From Candidatus Giovannonibacteria bacterium (GTDB lineage Bacteria > Patescibacteriota > Minisyncoccia > JACPKW01 > UBA11713): a stretch of 64,000 nt of DNA. The notes under the pieces are model-generated. The model did no database searches, had not been told where the DNA came from, and saw only the letters and a program-made list of their open reading frames with translations. Position 1 is the stretch's first letter. Every line of letters starts with the position of its first letter. Shown here piece by piece: positions 2,219 through 61,954 of this stretch. The position numbers and the translations under genes were made by a program. The stretch lies in assembly GCA_016186825.1 (NCBI GenBank), contig JACPKW010000001.1:13508-77507 (forward strand), read 5' to 3'.

Positions 2219-2260
2219 CACGGTACCATCTTGGTGCGATCGCACCAAGATGGTACCGTG
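2219..2260. repeat. perfect 42-bp palindrome CACGGTACCATCTTGGTGCGATCGCACCAAGATGGTACCGTG, a member of the GGTACC/CGATCG palindrome family
   Basis: Read directly: the first 21 nt are the exact reverse complement of the last 21 nt. It sits between the end of the VOC gene and the start of the MBL gene, with a T-run upstream. Confidence 0.85.
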
Positions 2261-24354: not shown

Positions 24355-24412
24355 CCTCTTGGCGCCATCTTTGGGCGATCGTGAACAAATGACGCCAAGA
24401 TGGTAAATGCTA
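24355..24412. repeat. degenerate member of the GGTACC/CGATCG palindrome family
   Basis: CGCCATCTTTGGGCGATCG...GACGCCAAGATGGTA retains the CCATCTTGG/CCAAGATGG arms and the CGATCG core. Confidence 0.5.
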
Positions 24413-30773: not shown

Positions 30774-30845
30774 GCGAGTATAGTTCAGTGGTAGAACGCT
30801 GTCCTGATAAGACAGAGGTCGAAGGTTCGATTCCTTCTACTCGCA
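30774..30845 (+). tRNA. tRNA-Ile (anticodon GAU)
   Basis: GCGAGTA acceptor stem, D-arm GTTC-AGTGGTA-GAAC, anticodon stem CTGTC/GACAG with loop CTGATAA (anticodon GAU), T-arm GAAGG-TTCGATT-CCTTC, acceptor TACTCGC plus A. Confidence 0.85.
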
Positions 30846-30856
30846 CAATCTACAAA

Positions 30857-31450: not shown

Positions 31451-32289
31451 ATTATCTTCTAGAAACTTAGAATTGATGTTCCCACGTAGTGTGCGGATTT
31501 CCCGCGCTACGCGAGCTCTAATGCATTGATGCTTTTATTTTATAGAGCTTAGCTAACCCCTGCTTGTTAAGATGTTGGCCGTTTTTTATCCTCAACATCA
31601 GATCACAGAATATCTCAAAGTCTCTTTTCTTTGATTTAAGCTGCAACTGATGAGTTTTAAAAAACGGAATAATGACATCTTCAAGATCCTTTCTATTGGA
31701 TACTTCATAGCGATAACAATTCTGGTGATTCTTACGTGTATCTTTCTGAAAATACACCTCGCCGCAACCGAAAAATTTTTTTAGCCTAAAGAGAATTTCA
31801 GAGTCTCTCTCAATAAGCTTTAAATAAAATTTCGGTTCAGCTCTAACCCATCTTTTTACATTTTTTGTAAATTCAGGGTTTTTAATGTAGGCGGTAAAAC
31901 TACCCTCGCCATCAACTAGTCCAATAATATATTCGGCATTAAGCATATTTAGAGTGGATCCTTTCCGGTTCTAGCCGGTACTATGATCCAGCTGACTTCT
32001 GACGCTGCGTAAGTTTCATTATATCTTATCTTGCGACAAAATAGCAGCGTCAGATCTCCACAGGTCATTTTATTTTCTATTCCAAGCATCCGAATTGGCC
32101 TTATTATGATCTTCCCTGCCCTCACCGCCAATTGCAGGTCGAACTGCCATTTATATATCGGCTGCTTTTTGCTTCCAGATCCTTCGCTTGCCGCTTCACA
32201 GCGGCAAACTATCTTTCGGCTATGCTCTTTGACGAGAAGAGAAATGGATTTTAACCATTCAGAAAATAAAACTGCTGCGCGCTTTTATT
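31451..32289 (-). mobile_element. intron-like insertion 1 in the 16S gene (near E. coli position 1391) carrying a LAGLIDADG ORF
   Basis: The 16S sequence stops after ...CTTGTACTCAC and resumes CGCCCGTCACG 839 bp later. Conserved rRNA flanks are intact on both sides. Confidence 0.65.
31518..31946 (-). CDS. LAGLIDADG homing endonuclease (single-motif)
   Basis: 142 aa. The N-terminal IIGLVDGEGSF is the LAGLIDADG motif. Encoded inside the 16S insertion on the same strand as the rRNA. Confidence 0.75.
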   Translation of the reverse strand: MLNAEYIIGLVDGEGSFTAYIKNPEFTKNVKRWVRAEPKFYLKLIERDSEILFRLKKFFGCGEVYFQKDTRKNHQNCYRYEVSNRKDLEDVIIPFFKTHQLQLKSKKRDFEIFCDLMLRIKNGQHLNKQGLAKLYKIKASMH

Positions 32290-32714
32290 GTGAGTACAAG
32301 ACTCGAGAACGTATTCACCGCGGCATAGCTGATCCGCGATTACTAGCGATTCCAGCTTCATGAGGTCGAGTTTCAGACCTCAATCCGAACTGAGCTCACC
32401 TTTGATGAGATTGGCTCCGCCTTACGGCATCGCGACCCATTGTAGTGAGCATTGTAGCATGTGTGTAGCCCAGGGCATCAGAGGGTCATGCTGACCTGGC
32501 GTCATCCCCGCCTTCCTCCCCCTATACGGAGGCAGTCTCGTCTGACACTTATAACAGACGATAAGGGTTGCGTTCGTTACCCCACTTAAGGGAACAGCTC
32601 AAGCCACGAACTGACGACGGCCATGCAACACCTGTGTAAGCGTCCTTGTGAGACATTTTTTCTTTCGAAAAAATTTCGCTTACATTTCAAGCCCTGGTGA
32701 GGTTCTTCGTTTAC

Positions 32715-32749
<35 letters not shown>

Positions 32750-32896
32750 AGTCCCCGTCTATTCCTTTGAGTTTTAATCTTGCGATCGTACTTCCCAGGC
32801 GGCAGGCTTAACGCGTTAGCTTACGGCTCCCGAAGGGTCGATACTTCGGATGCCTAGCCTGCATCGTTTAGGGCGTGGACTACAAGGGTATCTACA

Positions 32897-33593
32897 AATT
32901 TGTTGCTAACAACAAATTTGAAATTTTCAATTTTACAATTTCCAATTTTCAAAATGTTGTAGGGCAAGACATTTCTGCTTGTCTCTCTGCATCGCTGCAG
33001 AGTTCAGACTATATCATACGAGCACTTTGAGAAGCGGACGTCGTTAGACATCCGGACTTCAAAGTGCTCGCCTCGGCGTATAGTCGTTGAGGGGAATTAG
33101 ACTGGGATAAAACGACTCACCTCATAAAGGTTTCTGCCAATAACTCGATCTCCGCCAGCTTCGATGTTCTTGATAAATTCAGCCAAATCCGCTTTCGCAA
33201 GATCGTCGGACTCCTGTTCGATGCATTCAACTATGCTGCGGTTCTTGTTTTCTATATCAAGTATAGCGAGATAGTTCATTTTCTACTCCTTTCTTAATTC
33301 TTCCCTGCTGGTTATCCGCACCAAAACATTTTTACTCTTGCAAGTAGTTTTGGATACACCGGACTTTCCAGCATATAGCTCCCGCCTCGGCTCACGCCTC
33401 GACGGGATTCTCAATTTTGCAGCCAACATGCGTTGGGCAAAATTGGAACAAGTTTTTTATCCTCGTCCGCCAGTTAGCGGATTCGAGGGGACTAGTTTTC
33501 CGCCGATACCCTCGGCGGCCACTGCACAGCAGTAAAATCTCCAATTTGAAAATTGAAAATTGTAAATTGAAAATTTCGCTGCCATGCAGCGGG
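32897..33593 (-). mobile_element. intron-like insertion 2 in the 16S gene (within the GGATTA|GATACCC block, near E. coli position 788)
   Basis: About 697 bp interrupt a universally conserved block. The insertion termini carry complementary AT-rich repeats (AAATTTGAAATTTTCAATTTTACAATTTCC at 32921-32950 and GAAAATTGAAAATTGTAAATTGAAAATTTC at 33549-33578) that could pair the intron ends. Confidence 0.55.
33097..33279 (-). CDS. small acidic ORF inside 16S insertion 2, preceded by a strong SD
   Basis: 60 aa. The minus-strand upstream sequence reads GAATTAAGAAAGGAGTAGAAA-ATG, so the SD AAAGGAG lies 6 nt from the start. No recognised motif. Confidence 0.35.
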   Translation of the reverse strand: MNYLAILDIENKNRSIVECIEQESDDLAKADLAEFIKNIEAGGDRVIGRNLYEVSRFIPV

Positions 33594-33920
33594 TTAATCC
33601 TTTTTGATCCCCACGCTTTCGTGTTTCAGGGTCAGGAATGCCCCAGCAAATTGCCTTCGCCTTTGGTGTTCCCCTAGATATCAACGGATTTCACCCCTAC
33701 ACCTAGAGTTCCATTTGCCTCTGGCACCCTCCGAGCTCGGCCGTTTCCCCGCCAGCTTCAGGGTTGAGCCCTGAAATTTAAACGGAGACTAACCGTGCCC
33801 CCTACACACCCTTTACGCCCAATAAATCCGGATAACGCTCGGGCTCCTCGTCTTACCGCGGCTGCTGGCACGAGGTTAGCAAGCCCTTATTCCTGCGGTA
33901 CCGTCAGAGTTAGAGCTGTG

Positions 33921-34148
33921 AAGAGACAAGTTTTTTTCCTTTCTACTTGCCTCGTATTTTCCTTATTGGATAAGGACTATTGAAAATATATTTGGGGTTG
34001 TCATTTTTGATTCTTATGAATCTCCCAGGGACTTCATCTGATGTTGCTTCAAATTCTTTTGTAACTCTTTCCCCGGTTTTTTGATTTACCCCGCGCACTA
34101 TATACAAATAGCGCTGATATTCTCTATTTAACATTTTAAATATCTCCT
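33921..34148 (-). other. insertion of about 228 nt in the loop of the 16S V3 hairpin (helix 17), intervening-sequence-like
   Basis: Complementary stems GAGTTAGAGCTGTG (33907-33920) and CACAGCTCCAACTC (34149-34162) flank about 228 nt where E. coli has about 35 nt. Confidence 0.5.
33943..34134 (-). CDS. small basic ORF (63 aa) inside the 16S V3 insertion, preceded by an SD
   Basis: MLNREYQRYLYIVRGVNQKTGERVTKEFEATSDEVPGRFIRIKNDNPKYIFNSPYPIRKIRGK. The upstream minus-strand sequence is GTGAGGAGATATTT-ATG (GGAG 7 nt from the start). The longer ORF-track version (to 34299) runs into conserved rRNA and is rejected. Confidence 0.35.
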   Translation of the reverse strand: MLNREYQRYLYIVRGVNQKTGERVTKEFEATSDEVPGRFIRIKNDNPKYIFNSPYPIRKIRGK

Positions 34149-34626
34149 CACAGCTCCAACTCTTCTTCTCGCAGAAAAGCGGTTTACGCTCCGAAGAGCT
34201 TCTTCCCGCACGCGGCGTCGCTCGATCAGGCTTTCGCCCATTGTCGAATGTTCTTGACTGCAGCCACCCGTAGGTGTATGGACCGTGTCGCAGTTCCATT
34301 GGTGGGGATCAAGCTCTCACTTCCCCTAGCCGTCATAGCCTTGGTAGGCCATTACCCTACCAACAAGCTGATAGCCCGCAGGCCTTTCCCAGAGCCTATC
34401 GCTAGATTTACTCGGCACCTTCCAAACTTCGTGTAATTCGCTCGACACAAAGTCTCGAAGGTGCCGAGACTATCGGGAATTAGCTAACCTTTCGGCTAGT
34501 TATGCCCGTCTCTGGGGTAAGTTCCTACGTGTTACTACCCCGTCTGCCACTGAACATCTAAATCCGTCGCATTGATATAATCTCAACTCCTTCAAAAGAT
34601 GTTCCGTTCGACTTGCATGCCTTATC

Positions 34627-34666
<40 letters not shown>

Positions 34667-35068
34667 TTTGAATTGCTCACGCATTGCGCGAGCAAATTTT
34701 GAACGGGACAAAAGAGAGTAGTTATAACTTTCTTTTGTCACAAACTTTTCACCCGCTTAAGTATTGTCTTAAACAATTCCTTGCGGGTTGTGTGTCCCGA
34801 TTTTGCTTCTGCAAAGCAGAAATGCAAAATCGAGGATCCCCGATTTTCATTTATGAAAATCGGGACATGTTTTTGATATTCTTTTTTCAACGTTCTGTCG
34901 ATCTGAATATTCTCTGTAAACAAACCCGCAACTGCCTTCACATAAAAACAGTTGCGGACTTGTTTATTTTTCAAATAAATTTTTAGGGCTGTTTACATAA
35001 GTTTTCGAATTAATTCTAAGTCCAATGTCCATTATATGGTTCCTGCAAAGCTTGTCAACCGGCCGATT

Positions 35069-36899: not shown

Positions 36900-37390
36900 G
36901 AAAAGTATACTACAAGATTCAATATTAAAAATCAACACCGGCGTAAATAGCATTGGGGTTAACTGTGCGGATCATTGTGTACATGATTTAGCGCGGAACT
37001 TCCATAAACCAGTCCAAAAGTCCGTTGAAAGGCCGTCGGAGTTCCATCTTCACTTTCTCGCGCCGCAACGTGCAGGAGTAATAATAGAGGTCCAGATCAA
37101 AAATTATTTCATTCTCATAGAGCCTAATCTCTAGTGATGACCCCGGAGTGATTAGCTGCGAGAGCGCCAGAGCGTCAGGGCTTTCTCTAAACTCTCGGCT
37201 TCGAGCATAAAACCCAAACTAAAACACGTTTGAATTCCAAGCACGAAATCCTCGATGGTATCCTCGAGTCCAAGAGTAATATTTTCGTCGGATCCTCTCG
37301 CCCGAATTTCTAGAAAGATGTCCATGGTCTCTGTCTGCCACCTCAATCATACGCGATCGCGGATTATTGAAGAAATATAAAGTTTACTAA

Positions 37391-37936
37391 TCAAATCTTA
37401 AAGTGTTTCTTCAAATTAGTATCAGGAATAATAGGAGCTTCAATGTAATAAACCGACTCCGCAATATCGAAGAAATTAATGACAAAATTTATCTCATCCC
37501 GGCAAGGATACGGATACACAAAAACACTCTTTTGAAATTCCAGAAAGCCAAGATGCTTCAATTTCCGCCGAAGCGCATCGCGCGTTTTCTTTATTGACTC
37601 GGGAATATCAAAAAGTACAAGCCGCCACTTTCTGTCCCACTTCTTTTTGGGGATAAGTTTCATACTTTTGAATTGGTGTGAGAGAGAAAGAAATCTTCCA
37701 GCGTTGGTAAATTGCACTTTTTCTACTCCATCGCCCCGCTTAATCACTTCTATGGCGCCCCGAAGTTTTAGTCGCCCGAGAATCTGGTACAACTGTTTTC
37801 TATCCATTGAATACCAGACACGGTCGCTTTCTTCAAAAAGCTTTCGTCGTTCTTTTTTACTCTTAACAAAGCCTAAAAGTGTCCCAGCTGCCAGCAATTC
37901 TAAAACCTGTGTCATTAATTTCGCTTCTTGTGCCAT
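37391..37936 (-). CDS. winged-helix plus Cas2-like/PaaX-C-like domain protein (paralog A)
   Basis: 181 aa. N-terminal wHTH-like (QLYQILGRLKLRGAIEV). C-terminal KWDRKWRLVLFDIPESIKKTRDALRRKLKHLGFLEFQKSVFVYPYP...FFDIAESVYYIEA parallels Cas2 (LVLxxYDI...RRLRK...G.RVQNSVFEC...DSIRxY) and the PaaX middle domain. Paralogous to 61356-61898. Confidence 0.55.
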   Translation of the reverse strand: MAQEAKLMTQVLELLAAGTLLGFVKSKKERRKLFEESDRVWYSMDRKQLYQILGRLKLRGAIEVIKRGDGVEKVQFTNAGRFLSLSHQFKSMKLIPKKKWDRKWRLVLFDIPESIKKTRDALRRKLKHLGFLEFQKSVFVYPYPCRDEINFVINFFDIAESVYYIEAPIIPDTNLKKHFKI

Positions 37937-38021
37937 TATTTAAATTATACATCAACTACCTCATAACTGCACGATAGCGTATATTTGAGGAAATAAAAGT
38001 GATAAATAGGCTCTATAAAGA

Positions 38022-40323: not shown

Positions 40324-42597
40324 TCAGAGTTGTCGAGATCTAATGGCAATCTTTCTGAAAAAGTAATAGAGGAGATAGGCAGGAATTGCTAAGATTGCGC
40401 AAAGAATCCAAATTATGTTTGAGCCGCCGCCGAGTTGATGCCGAATTTTTTTCTTTTCAGAAATTTCATAAGCGAGCAAAGCAGAGCCTAAAATTGCAGT
40501 GAAAATAATCAGAAAAGGCTTGAAATAATCGCCGATTCCAGTATAGGGCACTTGGCTTAAAAAGATATGCGATGCGGGAATCAATTGGCCTTGAAGCGTC
40601 ACATTGCTTGAAGGTAGGATCGGGCCGCCTACGCCACCACCGCCACCTCCTCCGCCACCGCCGCCACCGCCACCTCCTCCGCCGCCATTTCCTCCACCGC
40701 CATTTCCTCCACCGCCATTTCCTCCACCGCCACCGCCACCTTTTTTAGCGTTGGTAAATGTGCAAGTAACGGTTTCACCGAAACTCAAATTTATCTCACT
40801 TGTGGAATTTACGTTGCTGCAATTTGAGCTCTGGTTGTAGTCCGAATTTGAATTTTCTGTCACGGAGTAGACGCCCGGATTAAGCCCCGAAAAAGTTTTG
40901 GAATTTGAGAACGCGTCAGTAGTACTGCCGTTATCATCCAACTGGAAAGTTGTGGTAGCTAGACCAAGCGCTTTTGAGAAGAAATTAAATGTAAAAGCAG
41001 TCGCGTCATCAGGATCCGTATTTTTTATAATCACAAGATTCGCTTTTTTCTTTGTATTCGTGAAAGTGCATGTTACCGTTTCGCGCTCTGAAATTTTGAT
41101 CTCTGAAACCTGGCTTCCATCACTGCAAGATGAAATCGTTTCAAATAATGAATTGGGATCTTCACTGACGGCATAAGTTCCTGGAACCAGATTCACGAAA
41201 GTTTTTGAATTGGAAAATTGATTTGAATTGTTTCCATCATCATCGAGCTGGAAAACACCCGGATTTAAATTATCGGAACGGAAAGTAAATACGGTGCTGT
41301 GATCGGGAACGGTGTCTTTAACAATTACCAGGGAACCGAAAGCAGGCGGGGCTGGAGGTTGAGGCGGTTCTTCTTCATCTGCGGGGTTTTCACCTTCCTC
41401 GCCTTCATCTTCTGCGTCATCTTCACCGACTCCATCATCATCTTCTTCTGCAACCCCGTCGTCATCCTCCTCCGCAACTCCATCATCGTCTTCGCCTGCC
41501 GCGCCATCATCATCTTCCCCCGCGGTGCCGTCATCATCTTCACCTGCTGACCCATCGTCATCGCCCCCTCCGTCATTGTCATTATCACCATCGTCATCAC
41601 CATCGTCATCACTATCGTCATCGCTATCTCCGTCATCATCGCTATCACTGTCTCCATCATCATCACCACCATCTCCATCGCCGTCTCCGTCACCACCATC
41701 TGTGCCATAGTAGCGAAGCTTAAATTCAATTTGATCACTGTTATTGGCACCAATTGTTTTCAAAGGAATCTGGAAAGTATATGTTTTGTGTTCCCATTTT
41801 ACCTTGCTTGTATATTCATAATCGCTTTTGCCCCATTCCGCATGATTGTTGTCGATTTTGAAAAATCGGACACCGCTGTCAGTTTTTATTGCAAGCTCCG
41901 CCCAGTCGCCCTCCGGATCAAGCGTGTTGTCTGAAGTCCAGTCCAGAAACAATCTTAACTTCTCGCCGCTTGTTCTAAAGTATGCATATCTCGTCGCGGC
42001 AGGATGGCTCGATGCAGGTATTGCATCGAATTTATAAACCTTGTTTTGGCCAACCTCGTAATTTAAGTATCCTTTTTCAGGCCATTCATAAGGGACGCCC
42101 TTGTAATCTTCCTCGACTCCCGTAATAAAAAGCGTTCTTCCTTTTTCAATCCACGAAAGCTCAATAGTCTTTGACAACGCATCAACAACATCATAATCGG
42201 CATGCGAAAGTTTCTTCGTTGAAATCAATTTTCCGTCAGATGCGTACTTCGCCTCGGAAGGAATTTTTCCGCCTAGCGAAACTTCATCCAGATGCGCGCT
42301 TTGAGAATTTCCATCATGCCTAATGCGGACCCGATTAGTTTCTCCCGGAAGCAGGATAGTTTTTGATGTATAGCGATCGGGGTAAGGTTGCCCCGGAAAA
42401 TTTTCATCTGCAACAAAAATCCATTCGCCGTTATTGTAAGCTTCAATAATAAATGTTCCCGCTTCTGCGCGCGCATCAAAAACTCCCGATGTGAAAACAG
42501 AATGCAGTATGCGGACCACAAAATATAAAATTACGAAAAACAAAACCGCGTTTATCTTCTTAATTGTTATAATTTTTTTATTTATTTCTTTTTCCAT
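40324..42597 (-). CDS. large cell-surface protein: beta-sandwich repeats, acidic Asp/Gly/Glu tract, poly-Gly tract, VPYTG sorting-like signal
   Basis: The start is moved to MEKEINKK (signal/TM at AVLFFVILYFVV). Two repeated modules end ...GETVTCTFTN. Low-complexity GDGDGD...DDDG...EEDDDG and (GGGGN)n tracts. The C-terminus has QVPYTG, a hydrophobic stretch and a basic patch. A sortase gene lies 1.4 kb upstream. Confidence 0.7.
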   Translation of the reverse strand: MEKEINKKIITIKKINAVLFFVILYFVVRILHSVFTSGVFDARAEAGTFIIEAYNNGEWIFVADENFPGQPYPDRYTSKTILLPGETNRVRIRHDGNSQSAHLDEVSLGGKIPSEAKYASDGKLISTKKLSHADYDVVDALSKTIELSWIEKGRTLFITGVEEDYKGVPYEWPEKGYLNYEVGQNKVYKFDAIPASSHPAATRYAYFRTSGEKLRLFLDWTSDNTLDPEGDWAELAIKTDSGVRFFKIDNNHAEWGKSDYEYTSKVKWEHKTYTFQIPLKTIGANNSDQIEFKLRYYGTDGGDGDGDGDGGDDDGDSDSDDDGDSDDDSDDDGDDDGDNDNDGGGDDDGSAGEDDDGTAGEDDDGAAGEDDDGVAEEDDDGVAEEDDDGVGEDDAEDEGEEGENPADEEEPPQPPAPPAFGSLVIVKDTVPDHSTVFTFRSDNLNPGVFQLDDDGNNSNQFSNSKTFVNLVPGTYAVSEDPNSLFETISSCSDGSQVSEIKISERETVTCTFTNTKKKANLVIIKNTDPDDATAFTFNFFSKALGLATTTFQLDDNGSTTDAFSNSKTFSGLNPGVYSVTENSNSDYNQSSNCSNVNSTSEINLSFGETVTCTFTNAKKGGGGGGGNGGGGNGGGGNGGGGGGGGGGGGGGGGGGVGGPILPSSNVTLQGQLIPASHIFLSQVPYTGIGDYFKPFLIIFTAILGSALLAYEISEKKKIRHQLGGGSNIIWILCAILAIPAYLLYYFFRKIAIRSRQL

Positions 42598-48607: not shown

Positions 48608-49288
48608 TCATATGTTGAACATTCGATGTTCAACATTGAGCCTTTCTTCCAGTTTTCGTATGCTTGTCTTTTCAAGCAAATCTCTATACTCGGAGCGGGT
48701 TTCAAATTGATCTAAGATTAAGCTCGGATTTAAAAAATTTGCCCATCGACTTTCATAAACATAATCTTGATAGCTAGACCAAGGATATTGTAATTCTTTT
48801 TTCTTCCACCGTTTTAATTCTCCAGGGTTTAAGTGGATATACGCAGTTAGGTAATGCAAATATTTATCAGTATCTATATGCGCGGATTGAAATTTGCTTC
48901 CAAAAAGATGGCCGGAGCGATTATATCTGGTGTTGAAATATTTCGTATATGCATTTAGCAGACGCTGCATATATTTAGAAATCCCTCCTTCTTTTTCGCT
49001 ACCTACAATCAAGTGGAAGTGATTCGCCATCAAACAAAAACCTACTAGTTCAATATATCTTGACTTTTCAATCTGTCCAAAAATCAAATTGTTGAACATT
49101 CGATGTTCAACCAATGGCACGATGCGCCCAAAAGGATTCAAAACTGCATCACCTTGGAGCGCAAAGAGAAGCGAAAGAAAACGCCAGCGATCTTTATCAT
49201 CAAGAAAGATATTGCGTTTCTCAACCCCTCGGTTGAAAACATGGTAATACTCTCCACCCGCTAATTTTGCCCGAGACATAATCCTCAT
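48608..49288 (-). CDS. IS200-like Y1 (HUH) transposase, REP-associated tyrosine transposase (RAYT)-like
   Basis: The start is taken at the first ATG (MRIMSRAK). The ORF-track start at 49315 is a TTG inside a hairpin. YYHVFNRG (like YHVxxRG) and LMANHFHLIV (the HUH motif) are diagnostic. A C-terminal Tyr-containing helix is present. Confidence 0.7.
   Translation of the reverse strand: MRIMSRAKLAGGEYYHVFNRGVEKRNIFLDDKDRWRFLSLLFALQGDAVLNPFGRIVPLVEHRMFNNLIFGQIEKSRYIELVGFCLMANHFHLIVGSEKEGGISKYMQRLLNAYTKYFNTRYNRSGHLFGSKFQSAHIDTDKYLHYLTAYIHLNPGELKRWKKKELQYPWSSYQDYVYESRWANFLNPSLILDQFETRSEYRDLLEKTSIRKLEERLNVEHRMFNI
48612..48636. repeat. REP-like palindrome ATGTTGAACAT-TCG-ATGTTCAACAT (3' copy, overlaps the last 9 codons of the transposase)
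   Basis: Perfect 11-bp arms, read directly. Confidence 0.85.
49090..49111. repeat. REP-like palindrome TGTTGAACAT-TCG-ATGTTCAACC (internal copy, in-frame inside the transposase gene)
   Basis: 9/10 arm match. It encodes the same VEHRMFN peptide as the 3' copy. Confidence 0.8.
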
Positions 49289-49294
49289 TATAAA

Positions 49295-49317
49295 TGTTGA
49301 ACATCCAATGTTCAACA
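49295..49317. repeat. REP-like palindrome TGTTGAACAT-CCA-ATGTTCAACA (5' copy at the transposase start)
   Basis: Perfect 10-bp arms, immediately upstream of or overlapping the start region. Confidence 0.85.
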
Positions 49318-49331
49318 GTTAGTTCAGGAGG

Positions 49332-60915: not shown

Positions 60916-60944
60916 TTGACAAACGCGCCTTGTCGTAGTATAAT
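60916..60944 (+). promoter_or_regulatory. perfect sigma-70 consensus promoter (TTGACA, 17 bp, TATAAT)
   Basis: TTGACA at 60916-60921, a 17-nt spacer, TATAAT at 60939-60944. Followed by GGAGG and ATG. Confidence 0.65.
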
Positions 60945-60968
60945 GAACAAAACTGCACTGGAGGCTAA

Positions 60969-61130
60969 ATGAAAATTTCAACAGCCCTAATGCTCCTGAT
61001 CGGAGTCCTGGGCTTTCTGTACCTATTCCTCTGGCGGCCACTGCTCCCCGTGCTGGAGCGTAAGGCCGCCGATTACCGGACACCGTCCCGCTCGGAGCTC
61101 GCAGAGCTCGAGCGGCTTGAAAAACGTTGA
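60969..61130 (+). CDS. small hydrophobic peptide (53 aa; below the ORF-track cutoff), GC-rich
   Basis: MKISTALMLLIGVLGFLYLFLWRPLLPVLERKAADYRTPSRSELAELERLEKR. SD GGAGG 4 nt upstream. One TM, then an amphipathic charged tail. Confidence 0.45.
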   Translation: MKISTALMLLIGVLGFLYLFLWRPLLPVLERKAADYRTPSRSELAELERLEKR

Positions 61131-61307
61131 ACTTTCGATCCGCAGGGGGTGCTCATTTCCTCCTACCCCTGCGGAGTAACCTCCGGGAGCTGACTGAAAA
61201 GTTGCCCGATCAGCCAGCTCTCGGAGCACACAATTTTCCCTGACACGTTCGGGGAATTTTCTTTTGTCGTTAATTACTGTTTGAATCCAAAACACCTCAA
61301 TACCTAA

Positions 61308-61350
61308 AATGGTACCATCTCCCCACGATCGCCCCAAGATGGTACCATTA
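61308..61350. repeat. palindrome AATGGTACCATCT-CCCCACGATCGCCCCA-AGATGGTACCATT immediately upstream of the 61356 gene
   Basis: 13-bp perfect inverted arms around a CGATCG core. It ends 5 nt before the start codon. Confidence 0.85.
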
Positions 61351-61355
61351 TAACA

Positions 61356-61898
61356 ATGAAAGGATACGGGAAAATTTCAGGAAAAATCCTAATGCTCCTT
61401 GCAAACGGAGTCGTTTTGGGATCAACAAAAGACAAAAAGGAGCGCGAAAAAATTTTGAGAGACTCTGATCGAATCTGGATGAGTTTTGACGCAAAAGTCC
61501 TAAATAGAATACTTAGACGTTTTCAAAAAAGTGGGCTGGCGGTTCAGAGAAATGAGAATGGCCGGCATTTATTTGCAGTCACAGAAACCGGCCGCAGAAA
61601 AGCTTTAGCATATTCACTCAATGATTTAAAAATTAAAATCCCTCGGAAATGGGATAAAAGGTGGAGAATGGTACTTTTCGACATCCCTGAACCTAAGAGA
61701 AAAAAGCGCGATGCTTTAAGGGACAAAATAAAACAACTGGGTTTTCTCGAGTTTCAGAAAAGCGTTTTTGTTTTCCCATACCCCTGCGATGATGAAATTA
61801 ATTCCATTATTAATTTTTTTGATATTGCGGAGAATGTCTATTGTATTGAGGCGTCAATCAACCCAGATGCTGAGCTTAGAAAACATTTCAAAATTTGA
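61356..61898 (+). CDS. winged-helix plus Cas2-like/PaaX-C-like domain protein (paralog B)
   Basis: 180 aa. KWDKRWRMVLFDIPEPKRKKRDALRDKIKQLGFLEFQKSVFVFPYPCDDEINSIINFFDIAENVYCIEA. Co-linear with 37391-37936, and both end KHFKI. Confidence 0.55.
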   Translation: MKGYGKISGKILMLLANGVVLGSTKDKKEREKILRDSDRIWMSFDAKVLNRILRRFQKSGLAVQRNENGRHLFAVTETGRRKALAYSLNDLKIKIPRKWDKRWRMVLFDIPEPKRKKRDALRDKIKQLGFLEFQKSVFVFPYPCDDEINSIINFFDIAENVYCIEASINPDAELRKHFKI

Positions 61899-61916
61899 TG
61901 CACAGACATTGCTCCG

Positions 61917-61954
61917 AGGTACCATCTTGGGGCGATCGCACCAAGATGGTACCT
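61917..61954. repeat. palindrome AGGTACCATCTTGG-GGCGATCGCA-CCAAGATGGTACCT, 19 nt downstream of the 61356-61898 gene
   Basis: 14-bp inverted arms around CGATCG, with one mismatch in the spacer. Confidence 0.85.

What the first reader, a model, noticed from the sequence alone, without database searches (positions are those of the whole stretch)
61308..61954. Cas2-like/PaaX-like wHTH protein tightly bracketed by GGTACC-CGATCG palindromes, with a paralog at 37391-37936
Two co-linear paralogs of about 180 aa (61356-61898 plus strand, 37391-37936 minus strand) combine a winged-helix N-terminus with a C-terminal segment matching the Cas2 ferredoxin-like core and the PaaX middle/C domain. The matching blocks are W..W.L..FDIP......R..LR..L...GF...Q.SVF..P.P and a terminal acidic ...D.AESVYYIE strand. 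Neither copy sits next to a CRISPR array or a cas1 gene. The 61356 copy is flanked on both sides, within 5 and 19 nt, by members of one palindrome family. These have 13-14-bp arms GGTACCATCTTGG around a CGATCG core. Two further members sit in other intergenic regions (2219-2260, a perfect 42-mer, and a degenerate copy at 24355-24412). CGCGATCGCG also occurs 30 bp downstream of the other paralog, at 37355-37364. Possible explanations are (i) an autoregulated wHTH regulator whose operator is the palindrome, (ii) a Cas2/VapD-like nuclease domain co-opted as a regulator or toxin, or (iii) a small mobile or REP-like unit in which the protein acts on its own flanking hairpins.
Basis: partly seen in the sequence, partly recalled or inferred. 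Interest (0 to 1): 0.75.

Follow-up and report, generated by a model that had tools for sequence, protein, structure and literature searches.

The report
Palindrome-bracketed mini-PaaX/Cas2-like gene cassette
A small DNA-binding protein of ultra-small (CPR) bacteria, built from a variable winged-helix domain and an invariant Cas2-like domain, has its gene flanked on both sides by its own matching ~40-bp palindrome; this holds across hundreds of relatives and I found no description of it in the literature searched.

Summary
Both ORFs (61356-61898 +, 37391-37936 -) are 53%-identical short PaaX-family proteins: a winged helix plus the Pfam PaaX_M "Cas2-like" domain, with no PaaX C-terminal domain. 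The best structural match is E. coli PaaX, followed by VapD and Cas2.

In 80 homologous loci from diverse Patescibacteria, 75 of 83 genes have a palindrome at one or both ends, and 52 have one at both. These palindromes are about 320-fold enriched over the surrounding 565 kb. Arms differ between genomes and co-diverge with the protein. The centre (R-CGATCG-Y and variants) and an outer S-C-A box are conserved. The upstream copy overlaps a -10 box 6-8 nt before the ATG, which predicts a leaderless mRNA.

The cassettes sit at fixed, syntenic housekeeping loci, and I saw no near-identical copies, so they are not actively mobile.

Most likely this is a dimeric autoregulator that binds its own bracketing sites, like E. 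coli PaaX on TGATTC-N27-GAATCA. One point stays open: the Cas2 active-site residues (D109, Q134-K-S136) are invariant in all 83 proteins but lost in E. coli PaaX, so a nuclease or REPtron-like role is not excluded. I rate it a new variant of a known kind.

The parts
61305..61352 (.). Upstream palindrome of paralog 1: TAAAATGGTACCATCT-CCCCA-CGATCG-CCCCA-AGATGGTACCATTATA. The outer 13-16 nt pair; the inner 5 nt do not.
   Evidence: DNA hairpin -11.4 kcal/mol, z -6.4
61340..61348 (+). Predicted extended -10 promoter element TGgTACCAT inside the gene-proximal arm. It lies 7 nt before the ATG, which predicts a leaderless mRNA.
   Evidence: sequence. The same TGnTA(A/C)CAT + 6-7 nt + ATG layout occurs in the closest relatives L033-L036. 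TGnTAnnnT sits at +9 in 27% of gene-proximal upstream halves against 9% of the other halves, Fisher p 0.001.
61356..61898 (+). Paralog 1, 180 aa: wHTH (res. ~1-90) plus a Cas2-like ferredoxin domain (res. ~99-170). No PaaX C-terminal domain.
   Evidence: AF2 model pLDDT 84.6. Foldseek top hit is E. coli PaaX 8a39, then Cas2 and VapD.
61917..61954 (.). Downstream palindrome of paralog 1 (19-nt arms, 1 mismatch, GCGATCGC centre), between the convergent stops of this gene and pepA.
   Evidence: -17.4 kcal/mol, z -8.6
2219..2260 (.). Solo copy of the paralog-1 palindrome (perfect 42-mer). It lies 30 nt after the VOC/glyoxalase gene and 68 nt before the MBL-fold hydrolase gene, both on the - strand.
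   Evidence: -24.1 kcal/mol, z -10.3
24355..24412 (.). Degenerate solo copy of the paralog-1 palindrome with an ~11-nt insertion in one arm. It sits between the Rieske gene terminator and tRNA-Ala.
37391..37936 (-). Paralog 2, 181 aa, same architecture, 53% identical to paralog 1.
37343..37370 (.). Downstream palindrome of paralog 2 (TCAATCATACGCGATCGCGGATTATTGA), with arms different from those of paralog 1.
37959..37990 (.). Degenerate upstream palindrome of paralog 2 (CCTCAAATATACGCTATCGTGCAGTTATGAGG read on the - strand). It is followed by TATAAT (37944-37949) 7 nt before the ATG.
   Evidence: 23/32 identical to the downstream copy in inverted orientation (direct reading)

Best explanation
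Each of the two genes is a self-contained cassette. It encodes a short PaaX-family protein and is bracketed by two copies of that protein's own ~36-42-bp binding site.

Inferred mechanism: the protein binds duplex DNA as a dimer on the dyad of the palindrome. The two variable winged-helix domains read the lineage-specific arms, including the outer T-n-S-C-A-W box at -13 to -8 from the centre. The invariant Cas2-like dimer sits over the conserved centre, R-CGATCG-Y.

The upstream site overlaps the gene's own promoter. Depending on the clade, it covers either an extended -10 or the -35 region of a leaderless transcript, so binding represses the gene's own transcription, as E. coli PaaX does at Px.

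The downstream site, immediately after the stop codon, belongs to the cassette and not to the neighbouring gene. It most likely serves as a second operator that lets the protein loop or insulate its own gene from read-through in these very compact genomes.

A few solo sites elsewhere would form a small regulon. In the window these are 2219-2260, ahead of an MBL-fold hydrolase, and 24355-24412, ahead of tRNA-Ala.

Shown: domain architecture; family-wide linkage of gene and palindromes; site anatomy; co-divergence of arms and protein; promoter overlap in sequence; fixed syntenic position.

Inferred: actual binding; repression; the role of the downstream site; whether the Cas2-like domain only dimerises and contacts DNA or also cuts it.
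For: Protein:
- PF20803 PaaX_M at 83 and 80 bits.
- Foldseek top hits are E. coli PaaX 8a39 (E 6e-6) and Mtb Rv0674, then VapD and Cas2.
- hhalign to E. coli PaaX gives 85% probability over residues 52-169.

Precedent: E. coli PaaX binds TGATTC-N27-GAATCA, a 39-bp long-spaced palindrome, and represses its own promoter Px (PMC9493321).

Linkage:
- Across 80 homolog loci, strict core-type palindromes number 60 in 26.4 kb next to gene ends against 4 in 565 kb of flanks, about 320-fold.
- With the sensitive criterion, 75 of 83 genes have at least one palindrome, 63 upstream, 64 downstream and 52 both. Only 14 of 620 distant cores reach the same score.
- A core-agnostic scan still finds CGATCG-type centres in 98 of 123 gene-adjacent palindromes.
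- The pattern also holds in the distant 204-aa subfamily (L110) and in a member with a CCATGG centre (L112).

Site anatomy fits a protein site:
- Conserved elements are the centre, the -1 purine, and the S-C-A box at -11 to -9.
- In the degenerate half of the sites, symmetry survives mainly at -1 and at -9 to -12, and is lowest at -2 and -3.

Cognate specificity:
- Upstream and downstream arms are 80% identical within a cassette.
- Arm identity between cassettes tracks protein identity: 0.37-0.43 below 60%, 0.57 at 60-80%, 0.83 above 80%.
- The variable wHTH and invariant Cas2-like domain mirror the variable arms and conserved centre.

Promoter overlap.

The downstream site is present regardless of the neighbour's orientation: 26/32 convergent, 31/42 co-directional.
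Against: No binding or expression data exist; every step of the mechanism is inferred.

A plain duplex operator does not explain several features:
- Very long perfect palindromes, with arms up to 24-28 nt.
- 46 compensated double substitutions between the upstream and downstream copies, against 2-7 in slid controls.
- 59-76% complementarity at non-conserved spacer positions, against 25% background.
These point to hairpin or cruciform formation, or to hairpin-mediated homogenisation, as an extra layer.

A mere dimerisation domain would not need 11 invariant, mostly polar residues. These include the Cas2 active-site equivalents D109 and Q134-K135-S136, which E. coli PaaX has lost.

The protein lacks the PaaX ligand-binding C-terminal domain, so what would modulate it is unknown.

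A regulator that mostly regulates itself needs an output. Solo sites are few, about 2 per 100 kb.
Confidence: 0.5

Rival explanations
1. REPtron-like or domesticated element. The Cas2-like domain is an active, palindrome-centred nuclease or nickase, targeted by the wHTH. It acts on the hairpin or cruciform form of its cognate palindromes to maintain, copy or process them. The cassette plus its solo copies would be the non-HUH counterpart of a RAYT gene with its REPs.
For: - The architecture matches REPtrons: a single-copy gene bracketed by cognate palindromes, several diverged paralogs per genome each with its own arms, vertical inheritance in conserved synteny, and solo copies in intergenic DNA.
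- The same window holds a true Y1_Tnp (IS200/RAYT-like) gene, 48608-49315, bracketed in the same way.
- D109 and Q134-K-S136, which align with the Cas2 catalytic Asp pair and the Q-Y-S turn, are invariant in 83/83 proteins along with R104, R118 and E147. E. coli PaaX has lost them.
- Compensated changes and perfect long palindromes indicate structure formation.
- In the window, the gene-proximal half-arms are 18/18 identical inverted repeats, and the solo copy matches the distal half of the downstream site.
Against: - Pooled over 52 cassettes, inner and outer half-arms are equally similar (12.1 vs 12.3 of 16, p 0.56), so there is no general element/target asymmetry.
- Solo copies are few.
- Half of all sites are too degenerate to form hairpins, yet they keep the box and centre.
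- Asymmetric centres show no significant strand or orientation rule.
- The closest solved relative is a repressor.
Confidence: 0.2
2. RNA-level module. The palindromes act as 5' and 3' hairpins of the transcript, for stability, termination or translation control. The Cas2/VapD-like domain would bind or cut these RNA hairpins.
For: - Cas2 and VapD have reported endoribonuclease activity (PMC3351183, listed; references).
- Downstream palindromes show more G.T than A.C mismatches on the sense strand (72 vs 39), whereas upstream ones do not (48 vs 47).
- Compensated changes preserve pairing.
Against: - With the -10 box 6-8 nt from the ATG, the upstream palindrome lies outside the gene's own transcript.
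- There is no U-tract after the downstream copies (listing).
- Pairing next to the putative loop (-2, -3) is the weakest.
- There is no orientation bias of asymmetric centres.
- The G.T bias can also arise from transcription-linked mutation.
- No Rfam family matches.
Confidence: 0.08
3. Active insertion sequence or mobile cassette that currently transposes, using the palindromes as its ends.
For: The unit is ~650 bp, holds one gene with palindromic ends, and occurs in several copies per genome.
Against: - The best non-self protein hit among 5.8 billion sequences is 58% identical.
- Paralogs within one genome are 36-75% identical.
- Cassettes sit in conserved synteny among related MAGs: RmuC-cassette-rplU-recR in 5-7 loci, proS-cassette-frr in 3, and others.
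- The window's half-site has 0 hits in 185,579 species genomes, and the metagenome hits are unrelated.
Confidence: 0.03
4. Generic intergenic REP or terminator hairpins that flank the gene by coincidence, or alternatively a bona fide CRISPR Cas2.
For: Three to four copies in 64 kb, all intergenic. Some database records name homologs 'CRISPR-associated endonuclease Cas2'.
Against: - About 320-fold enrichment at these genes across 80 loci. Even against intergenic DNA alone, assumed to be ~10% of the flanks, the excess is at least 30-fold.
- No T-runs follow the palindromes.
- There is no CRISPR array or cas1 nearby.
- The protein is fused to a wHTH and scores far higher on PaaX_M than on Cas2.
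Confidence: 0.02

Closest known systems
PaaX, phenylacetyl-CoA-responsive repressor (E. coli; PDB 8a39; Pfam PF07848/PF20803/PF08223)
   Same: N-terminal wHTH followed by the Cas2-like middle domain, and the best structural and profile match. PaaX binds a ~39-bp long-spaced palindrome, TGATTC-N27-GAATCA, and autorepresses. That is comparable to the ~36-42-bp tripartite palindrome overlapping the promoter here.
   Different: - About 180 aa instead of 316, with no C-terminal ligand-binding domain.
- Scores 35.7 against the 264.55 cut-off of the PaaX equivalog model.
- No paa genes nearby.
- It keeps the Cas2 motifs FDI and QKSVF that PaaX has lost.
- The site has a conserved centre and often fully complementary arms.
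- A second site follows the stop codon.
- Several paralogs per genome, found in Patescibacteria.
Cas2 / VapD ferredoxin-fold nucleases
   Same: Same fold, with an invariant beta1 Asp and a Q-x-S-V-F turn aligned to Sso Cas2 D10 and Q33-Y-S35. Scores are borderline on Cas2 models.
   Different: Fused to a wHTH. No cas1, CRISPR array or antitoxin gene nearby. PaaX_M scores about 60 bits higher than Cas2. Nuclease activity is untested.
REP/RAYT 'REPtron' and IS200-type genes bracketed by hairpins
   Same: A single gene flanked on both sides by its own cognate palindromes. Diverged paralogs each have their own palindrome type. Inheritance is vertical and syntenic, with dispersed solo copies. A true Y1_Tnp example lies in the same window at 48608-49315.
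   Different: The protein is not an HUH/Y1 transposase. There are few solo copies, about 2 per 100 kb, rather than tens to hundreds. The palindromes carry a conserved centre and box typical of a dimeric duplex-DNA binding site. (The properties of REPtrons are from my own knowledge of the literature.)
HIP1 (GCGATCGC) of cyanobacteria
   Same: Shares the octamer GCGATCGC at the centre of several copies.
   Different: GCGATCGC occurs only 3 times in 64 kb (1.6 expected), always inside these palindromes. HIP1 is a hyper-abundant bare octamer that is also common inside genes (own knowledge).

Membership tests
PaaX family (COG3327 / PF20803) | Central PaaX_M (Cas2-like) domain above Pfam's gathering score | tested here: met
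   83.0 and 80.3 bits against a cut-off of 24. All 97 homologs carry PF20803.
PaaX family (COG3327 / PF20803) | [quoted passage not shown] | tested here: met
   The AF2 model has H-H-H plus a beta-wing at residues 2-89. It aligns structurally with PaaX 8a39 over 141 columns. Weak PadR and TrmB hits support this.
PaaX family (COG3327 / PF20803) | C-terminal PaaX_C ligand-binding domain and equivalog-level similarity (TIGR02277) | tested here: not met
   The protein ends about 10 residues after the Cas2-like domain. TIGR02277 scores 35.7 and 29.4 against a cut-off of 264.55. There is no PaaX_C hit.
PaaX family (COG3327 / PF20803) | Binds a long-spaced palindromic operator at its own promoter; responds to phenylacetyl-CoA; linked to paa genes | tested here: inconclusive
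   In silico, a ~40-bp palindrome overlaps the predicted promoter. There are no paa genes among the neighbours. Binding and ligand response cannot be tested with these tools.
CRISPR-associated Cas2 | Score above family thresholds | tested here: inconclusive
   PF09827 scores 23.3 against 23.8 (below). TIGR01573 scores 24.7 against 24.5 for paralog 1 and 23.1 for paralog 2.
CRISPR-associated Cas2 | Encoded next to cas1 and a CRISPR array; stand-alone protein of ~90-100 aa | tested here: not met
   The window has no CRISPR-like array. Neighbours are uppS, pepA, smc and rpsP. The protein is fused to a wHTH.
CRISPR-associated Cas2 | Catalytic beta1 Asp and Q-x-S turn | tested here: met
   D109 and Q134-K135-S136 are invariant in 83/83 proteins. 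They align to Sso Cas2 YD and QRS/QYS (PMC10491678).
REP/RAYT (REPtron) | HUH-Y1 transposase-like protein | tested here: not met
   No Y1_Tnp hit; the fold is PaaX/Cas2-like.
REP/RAYT (REPtron) | Gene bracketed by cognate palindromes that co-diverge with the protein | tested here: met
REP/RAYT (REPtron) | Tens to hundreds of dispersed copies per genome | tested here: inconclusive
   There are 16 solo candidates in 656 kb, 12 of them intergenic. No complete genome was available, and the source MAG is absent from the genome collection.
Active IS element | Near-identical copies at variable loci | tested here: not met
   The best non-self hit is 58% identical. Synteny is conserved. Same-genome paralogs are 36-75% identical.
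Intrinsic terminator | GC-rich hairpin followed by a T-run | tested here: not met
   The terminator scan does not call either palindrome. No T-runs appear after the downstream copies (listing).

The most novel reading that the evidence does not exclude
The cassette is a previously unrecognised kind of palindrome-associated Cas2-fold enzyme system. A wHTH-targeted Cas2-like dimer, with an intact Asp-pair/QKS active site, sits on the dyad of its cognate repeat and cuts or nicks the conserved CGATCG centre. It would do so in duplex or extruded-cruciform form, to propagate, homogenise or process the repeats.

That would make it a non-HUH analogue of RAYT/REP. Because it is a minimal 'repeat - cas2-like gene - repeat' unit, it could also be a living relative of the ancestor from which CRISPR adaptation modules recruited Cas2.
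Probability: 0.15. Interest if true: 0.85.

Novelty: new variant of a known kind. Interest (0 to 1): 0.6.

Why it matters
Patescibacteria/CPR genomes are small and are thought to encode few regulators. This family has about 800 clusters at 50% identity, often with 3-4 paralogs per MAG, so it may be one of their main DNA-binding protein families. Until now it has been annotated only as 'hypothetical', 'PaaX' or, misleadingly, 'Cas2'.

The analysis yields a concrete and testable protein-site code: a variable wHTH paired with variable arms, and an invariant Cas2-like domain paired with the conserved CGATCG centre. It also predicts leaderless, autoregulated cassettes.

The family links PaaX repressors to Cas2 through a form that still carries the Cas2 active-site residues. 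It also offers a defined DNA target, which is useful for the open question of what the Cas2 fold and its 'catalytic' residues do outside the Cas1-Cas2 complex.

Practically, PGAP's 'CRISPR-associated endonuclease Cas2' calls on these genes should be treated as mis-annotations.

Tried and rejected
1. Genome-wide count of the window's palindrome. The half-site CGATCGNNCCAAGATGGTACC gave 0 hits in the species-representative genome collection. The source MAG is therefore not held there, and no full-genome count was possible.

2. Two-arm pattern in metagenomes. It gave 28 hits, all unrelated hairpins with no CGATCG centre and no PaaX-like gene nearby.

3. Source contig via exact-protein look-up. 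Only a 1-kb Logan contig came back, and it breaks inside the upstream palindrome.

4. Terminal-inverted-repeat / target-site model. It was suggested by the window, where the inner halves are 18/18 identical and the solo copy equals the outer half. It was rejected as a general rule: pooled inner-inner and outer-outer identities do not differ.

5. Strand or orientation rule for asymmetric centres. My first count was biased by an asymmetric regular expression. After correction it is not significant (23:11, p 0.06; 8:3).

6. Downstream palindrome as the operator for the next gene. Rejected, because its presence is independent of the neighbour's orientation.

7. Intrinsic terminator, Rfam family, CRISPR array, phage or defence-system family. 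None applies.

8. Literature. Seven searches found no paper combining PaaX or Cas2-like proteins with CPR bacteria or with such palindromes. The library lacks many subscription-journal papers, including the primary paper for the 8a39 structure.

9. Not attempted. I did not model a dimer or a DNA complex, because the structure tool takes single chains from the window only. I did not do an 'empty-site' comparison at the uppS-pepA locus in close relatives, because it would have cost another whole-database protein search.
Full report
**What is in the window**

The window comes from a Candidatus Giovannonibacteria MAG. The 180-aa product of 61356-61898 is identical to NCBI protein HYW53_00435.

They are 53% identical over their whole length.

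Both match Pfam PF20803, 'PaaX protein central Cas2-like domain', at 83 and 80 bits against a cut-off of 24. They reach Cas2 models only at threshold level, and they fall far short of the PaaX equivalog model (35.7 vs 264.55).

[quoted passage not shown] Its best solved-structure matches are E. coli PaaX (8a39), Mtb Rv0674, and then VapD and many Cas2 chains.

The protein ends right after the Cas2-like domain, so the PaaX C-terminal ligand-binding domain is absent.

**The palindromes in the window**

- 2219-2260 is a perfect 42-mer.
- 61917-61954 has 19-nt arms and begins 19 nt after the stop.
- 61305-61352 ends 4-5 nt before the ATG. Only its outer arms pair.
- 24355-24412 is degenerate and carries an insertion.

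CGATCG alone is not over-represented (16 vs 18.9 expected). The signal is the whole ~40-bp unit.

Its downstream CGCGATCGCG (37352-37361) is the centre of an imperfect palindrome at 37343-37370. A degenerate relative of that palindrome, with centre CGATAG, lies upstream at 37959-37990. Its arms are unrelated to those of paralog 1 (arm identity 0.25).

**Is the flanking more than chance?**

Within 64 kb the evidence is weak, and the full source genome could not be retrieved:
- The half-site has no match in 185,579 species genomes.
- A two-arm pattern found only unrelated hairpins in metagenomes.

So I asked a different question: do homologs elsewhere carry their own palindromes?

All of the best 80 are in Patescibacteria, often with 3-4 per MAG.

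In those 80 loci:
- Palindromes with a C[G/T][A/G]T[C/A]G centre and at least 8 further paired positions occur 60 times within 150 nt of the gene ends (26.4 kb) and 4 times in the remaining 565 kb. That is about 320-fold.
- Part of this contrast is intergenic versus coding DNA. If I assume about 10% of the flanks are intergenic, the excess is still at least 30-fold.
- With a sensitive criterion (at least 10 of 16 flanking positions complementary, reached by only 14 of 620 distant cores), 75 of 83 genes have at least one such site and 52 have one on each side.
- A scan that ignores the centre recovers the same centres in 98 of 123 gene-adjacent palindromes.

The pattern persists in two distant members:
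- The 204-aa subfamily at 32% identity has GCGATCGC sites at -34 and +61, plus a third copy (L110).
- A member that PGAP calls 'Cas2' has CCATGG as its centre but keeps the outer box (L112).

The bracket is therefore a property of the family.

**Anatomy of the site**

Folding all half-sites onto one another gives R-CGATCG-Y at the centre (position -1 is always a purine). Positions -2 to -5 are weakly conserved. A box T-n-S-C-A-W lies at -13 to -8. Complementarity fades beyond about -18.

The arms are lineage-specific. Within a cassette, the upstream and downstream arms are 80% identical. Between cassettes, arm identity follows protein identity: 0.37-0.43 below 60%, 0.57 at 60-80%, 0.83 above 80%.

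The closest relatives of the window proteins share the CATCTT arm motif (listing).

The protein mirrors this pattern. Over 83 sequences, the invariant residues are W99, D100, W103, R104, D109, R118, Q134, K135, S136, P141 and E147. All lie in the Cas2-like domain, while the winged helix is variable. So a variable domain goes with variable arms, and an invariant domain goes with the invariant centre.

**Promoter**

On the outward-reading strand the box reads TGsTA.

In the gene-proximal half of the upstream site it extends to TGnTAnnnT, an extended -10, in 27% of cassettes. In the other three halves the figure is 9% (Fisher p 0.001).

In the window clade (W, L033-L036) this -10 is followed by 6-7 nt and then the ATG.

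In the window itself:
- TACCAT at 61343-61348 lies 7 nt before the ATG at 61356.
- TATAAT at 37944-37949 lies 7 nt before the ATG at 37936.

In other clades a TATAAT-like hexamer sits 6-8 nt before the ATG, and the palindrome covers the -35 region.

The genes are therefore predicted to be leaderless, with the site on top of the promoter. That is the classic layout of an autorepressor.

E. coli PaaX is a direct precedent. It binds TGATTC-N27-GAATCA and represses its own promoter Px (PMC9493321).

**Mobile or not?**

The cassette looks like an IS200 or a REPtron, and the window happens to contain a real one for comparison. ORF 48608-49315 is a Y1_Tnp protein bracketed by ATGTTGAACAT-TCG-ATGTTCAACAT palindromes.

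The PaaX-like cassettes, however, are not behaving as active elements:
- The best non-self hit in 5.8 billion proteins is 58% identical.
- Paralogs within a genome are 36-75% identical.
- Related MAGs carry the cassette at the same housekeeping loci, for example RmuC-cassette-rplU-recR, proS-cassette-frr, and next to alaS or gatB/miaA.

The window-specific hint of terminal repeats was that the inner half-arms are 18/18 identical and the solo copy equals the outer half. This does not generalise: 12.1 vs 12.3 of 16, p 0.56.

**What a simple operator does not explain**

- About a third of the sites are near-perfect palindromes with arms up to 24-28 nt.
- The upstream and downstream copies of one cassette differ by 46 compensated double substitutions, against 2-7 in slid controls.
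- Spacer positions chosen without ascertainment bias still pair in 59-76% of sites, against 25% background.

These features indicate hairpin or cruciform formation, or hairpin-templated homogenisation.

On the other hand, half of the sites are too degenerate to fold. They keep symmetry mainly at -1 and at -9 to -12, and least at -2 and -3, next to the would-be loop. So the universal constraint is a tripartite protein-type site, and perfect palindromy is an additional layer.

The downstream site is present whether the next gene is convergent or co-directional. It therefore belongs to the cassette itself. Its role (looping, roadblock or insulation, or a 3'-end hairpin) is inferred and not shown.

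Downstream sites show a G.T over A.C mismatch bias on the sense strand (72:39), while upstream sites do not (48:47). This is consistent with the downstream site being transcribed, but it does not prove an RNA function.

**The Cas2 question**

D109 aligns with the catalytic Asp of Sso Cas2, and Q134-K-S136 aligns with its Q-Y-S turn. Both elements are described as the Cas2/VapD active site (PMC10491678).

They are invariant in this family. E. coli PaaX has Glu and A-P-S at the aligned positions.

A Cas2-type dimer places its Asp pair on the two-fold axis. In a complex with a palindrome, that axis would coincide with the conserved CGATCG centre. This geometric argument is an inference from the known Cas2 dimer and was not modelled here. 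It keeps open the possibility that the protein cuts or nicks its sites.

**Verdict**

- The leading explanation (confidence about 0.5) is a short PaaX-family dimer that binds its own bracketing ~40-bp sites and autoregulates a leaderless gene, with a few extra targets.
- A REPtron-like or nuclease reading keeps about 0.2.
- RNA-level and active-IS readings are minor.
- Coincidence and a true CRISPR Cas2 are rejected.

The protein family is catalogued (Pfam/COG). I found no description of the family-wide cassette architecture, the site code, or the retention of Cas2 catalytic residues. I rate it a new variant of a known kind, with interest 0.6.

Noticed in passing
window 48608-49315 (-), palindromes at 48612-48636, 49089-49113, 49291-49321: A 235-aa Y1_Tnp (IS200/RAYT-like, HUH-type motif NHFHLIV) gene. 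Its start and stop are overlapped by copies of one palindrome, ATGTTGAACAT-TCG-ATGTTCAACAT, and a third copy lies inside the gene. This is a canonical hairpin-bracketed transposase-like gene in a CPR genome.
   Followed up: partly
window 32243-34672 (-): The 16S rRNA match covers model positions 1-1533 but spans 2430 nt, so it carries roughly 900 nt of insertions. tRNA-Ile at 30774-30846 lies on the opposite strand.
   Followed up: no
window 61305-61352 vs 61917-61954 vs 2219-2260: In the upstream copy, the 5 nt next to the centre on the distal side read CCCCA instead of TGGGG, as if that segment were flipped. The two gene-proximal half-arms are 18/18 identical inverted repeats. The solo copy at 2219-2260 matches the distal half of the downstream copy (GGTG/CACC). 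This looks like an insertion into a pre-existing palindrome, but the pattern is not general across cassettes.
   Followed up: yes
L112 2940-2980 and 3565-3605 (GCA_024654525.1, JANLHI010000030.1): A homolog annotated 'CRISPR-associated endonuclease Cas2' is bracketed by palindromes whose centre is CCATGG instead of CGATCG, with the same GCA box at -11 to -9. The downstream copy is immediately preceded by GCGGTCGC.
   Followed up: partly
L072 (JAHISW010000091.1), genes at ~3974 and ~5200: Two tandem paralogs of the PaaX-like gene (66% identical) sit in one locus, each with CGATCG-centred sites nearby.
   Followed up: no
L081 343-402; L060 ~8332; L059 5749-5780: Solo core-type palindromes whose arms do not match the local cassette. 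One is a perfect 60-bp palindrome with centre CGATAG. They are presumably cognate to paralogs elsewhere in those genomes, or scars of lost cassettes.
   Followed up: partly
window 60916-61256: A perfect sigma-70 consensus promoter (TTGACA-17-TATAAT, 60916-60944) precedes a 53-aa hydrophobic ORF (60969-61130). A canonical hairpin plus T-run terminator follows at 61236-61256. So the upstream neighbour of the cassette has its own terminator and does not need the palindrome for termination.
   Followed up: no
L001 (Logan contig SRR12113418_936156): The only other assembly of this gene is a 1053-bp contig that ends inside the upstream palindrome, 41 nt before the ATG. The palindrome evidently breaks de Bruijn-graph assembly, which may be why many family members sit on very short contigs.
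   Followed up: no
window 40624-41664: Dense low-complexity tandem repeats (CCACCG / CCATCATCATCTTC... units; periods 6-48), presumably encoding a repetitive protein segment.
   Followed up: no
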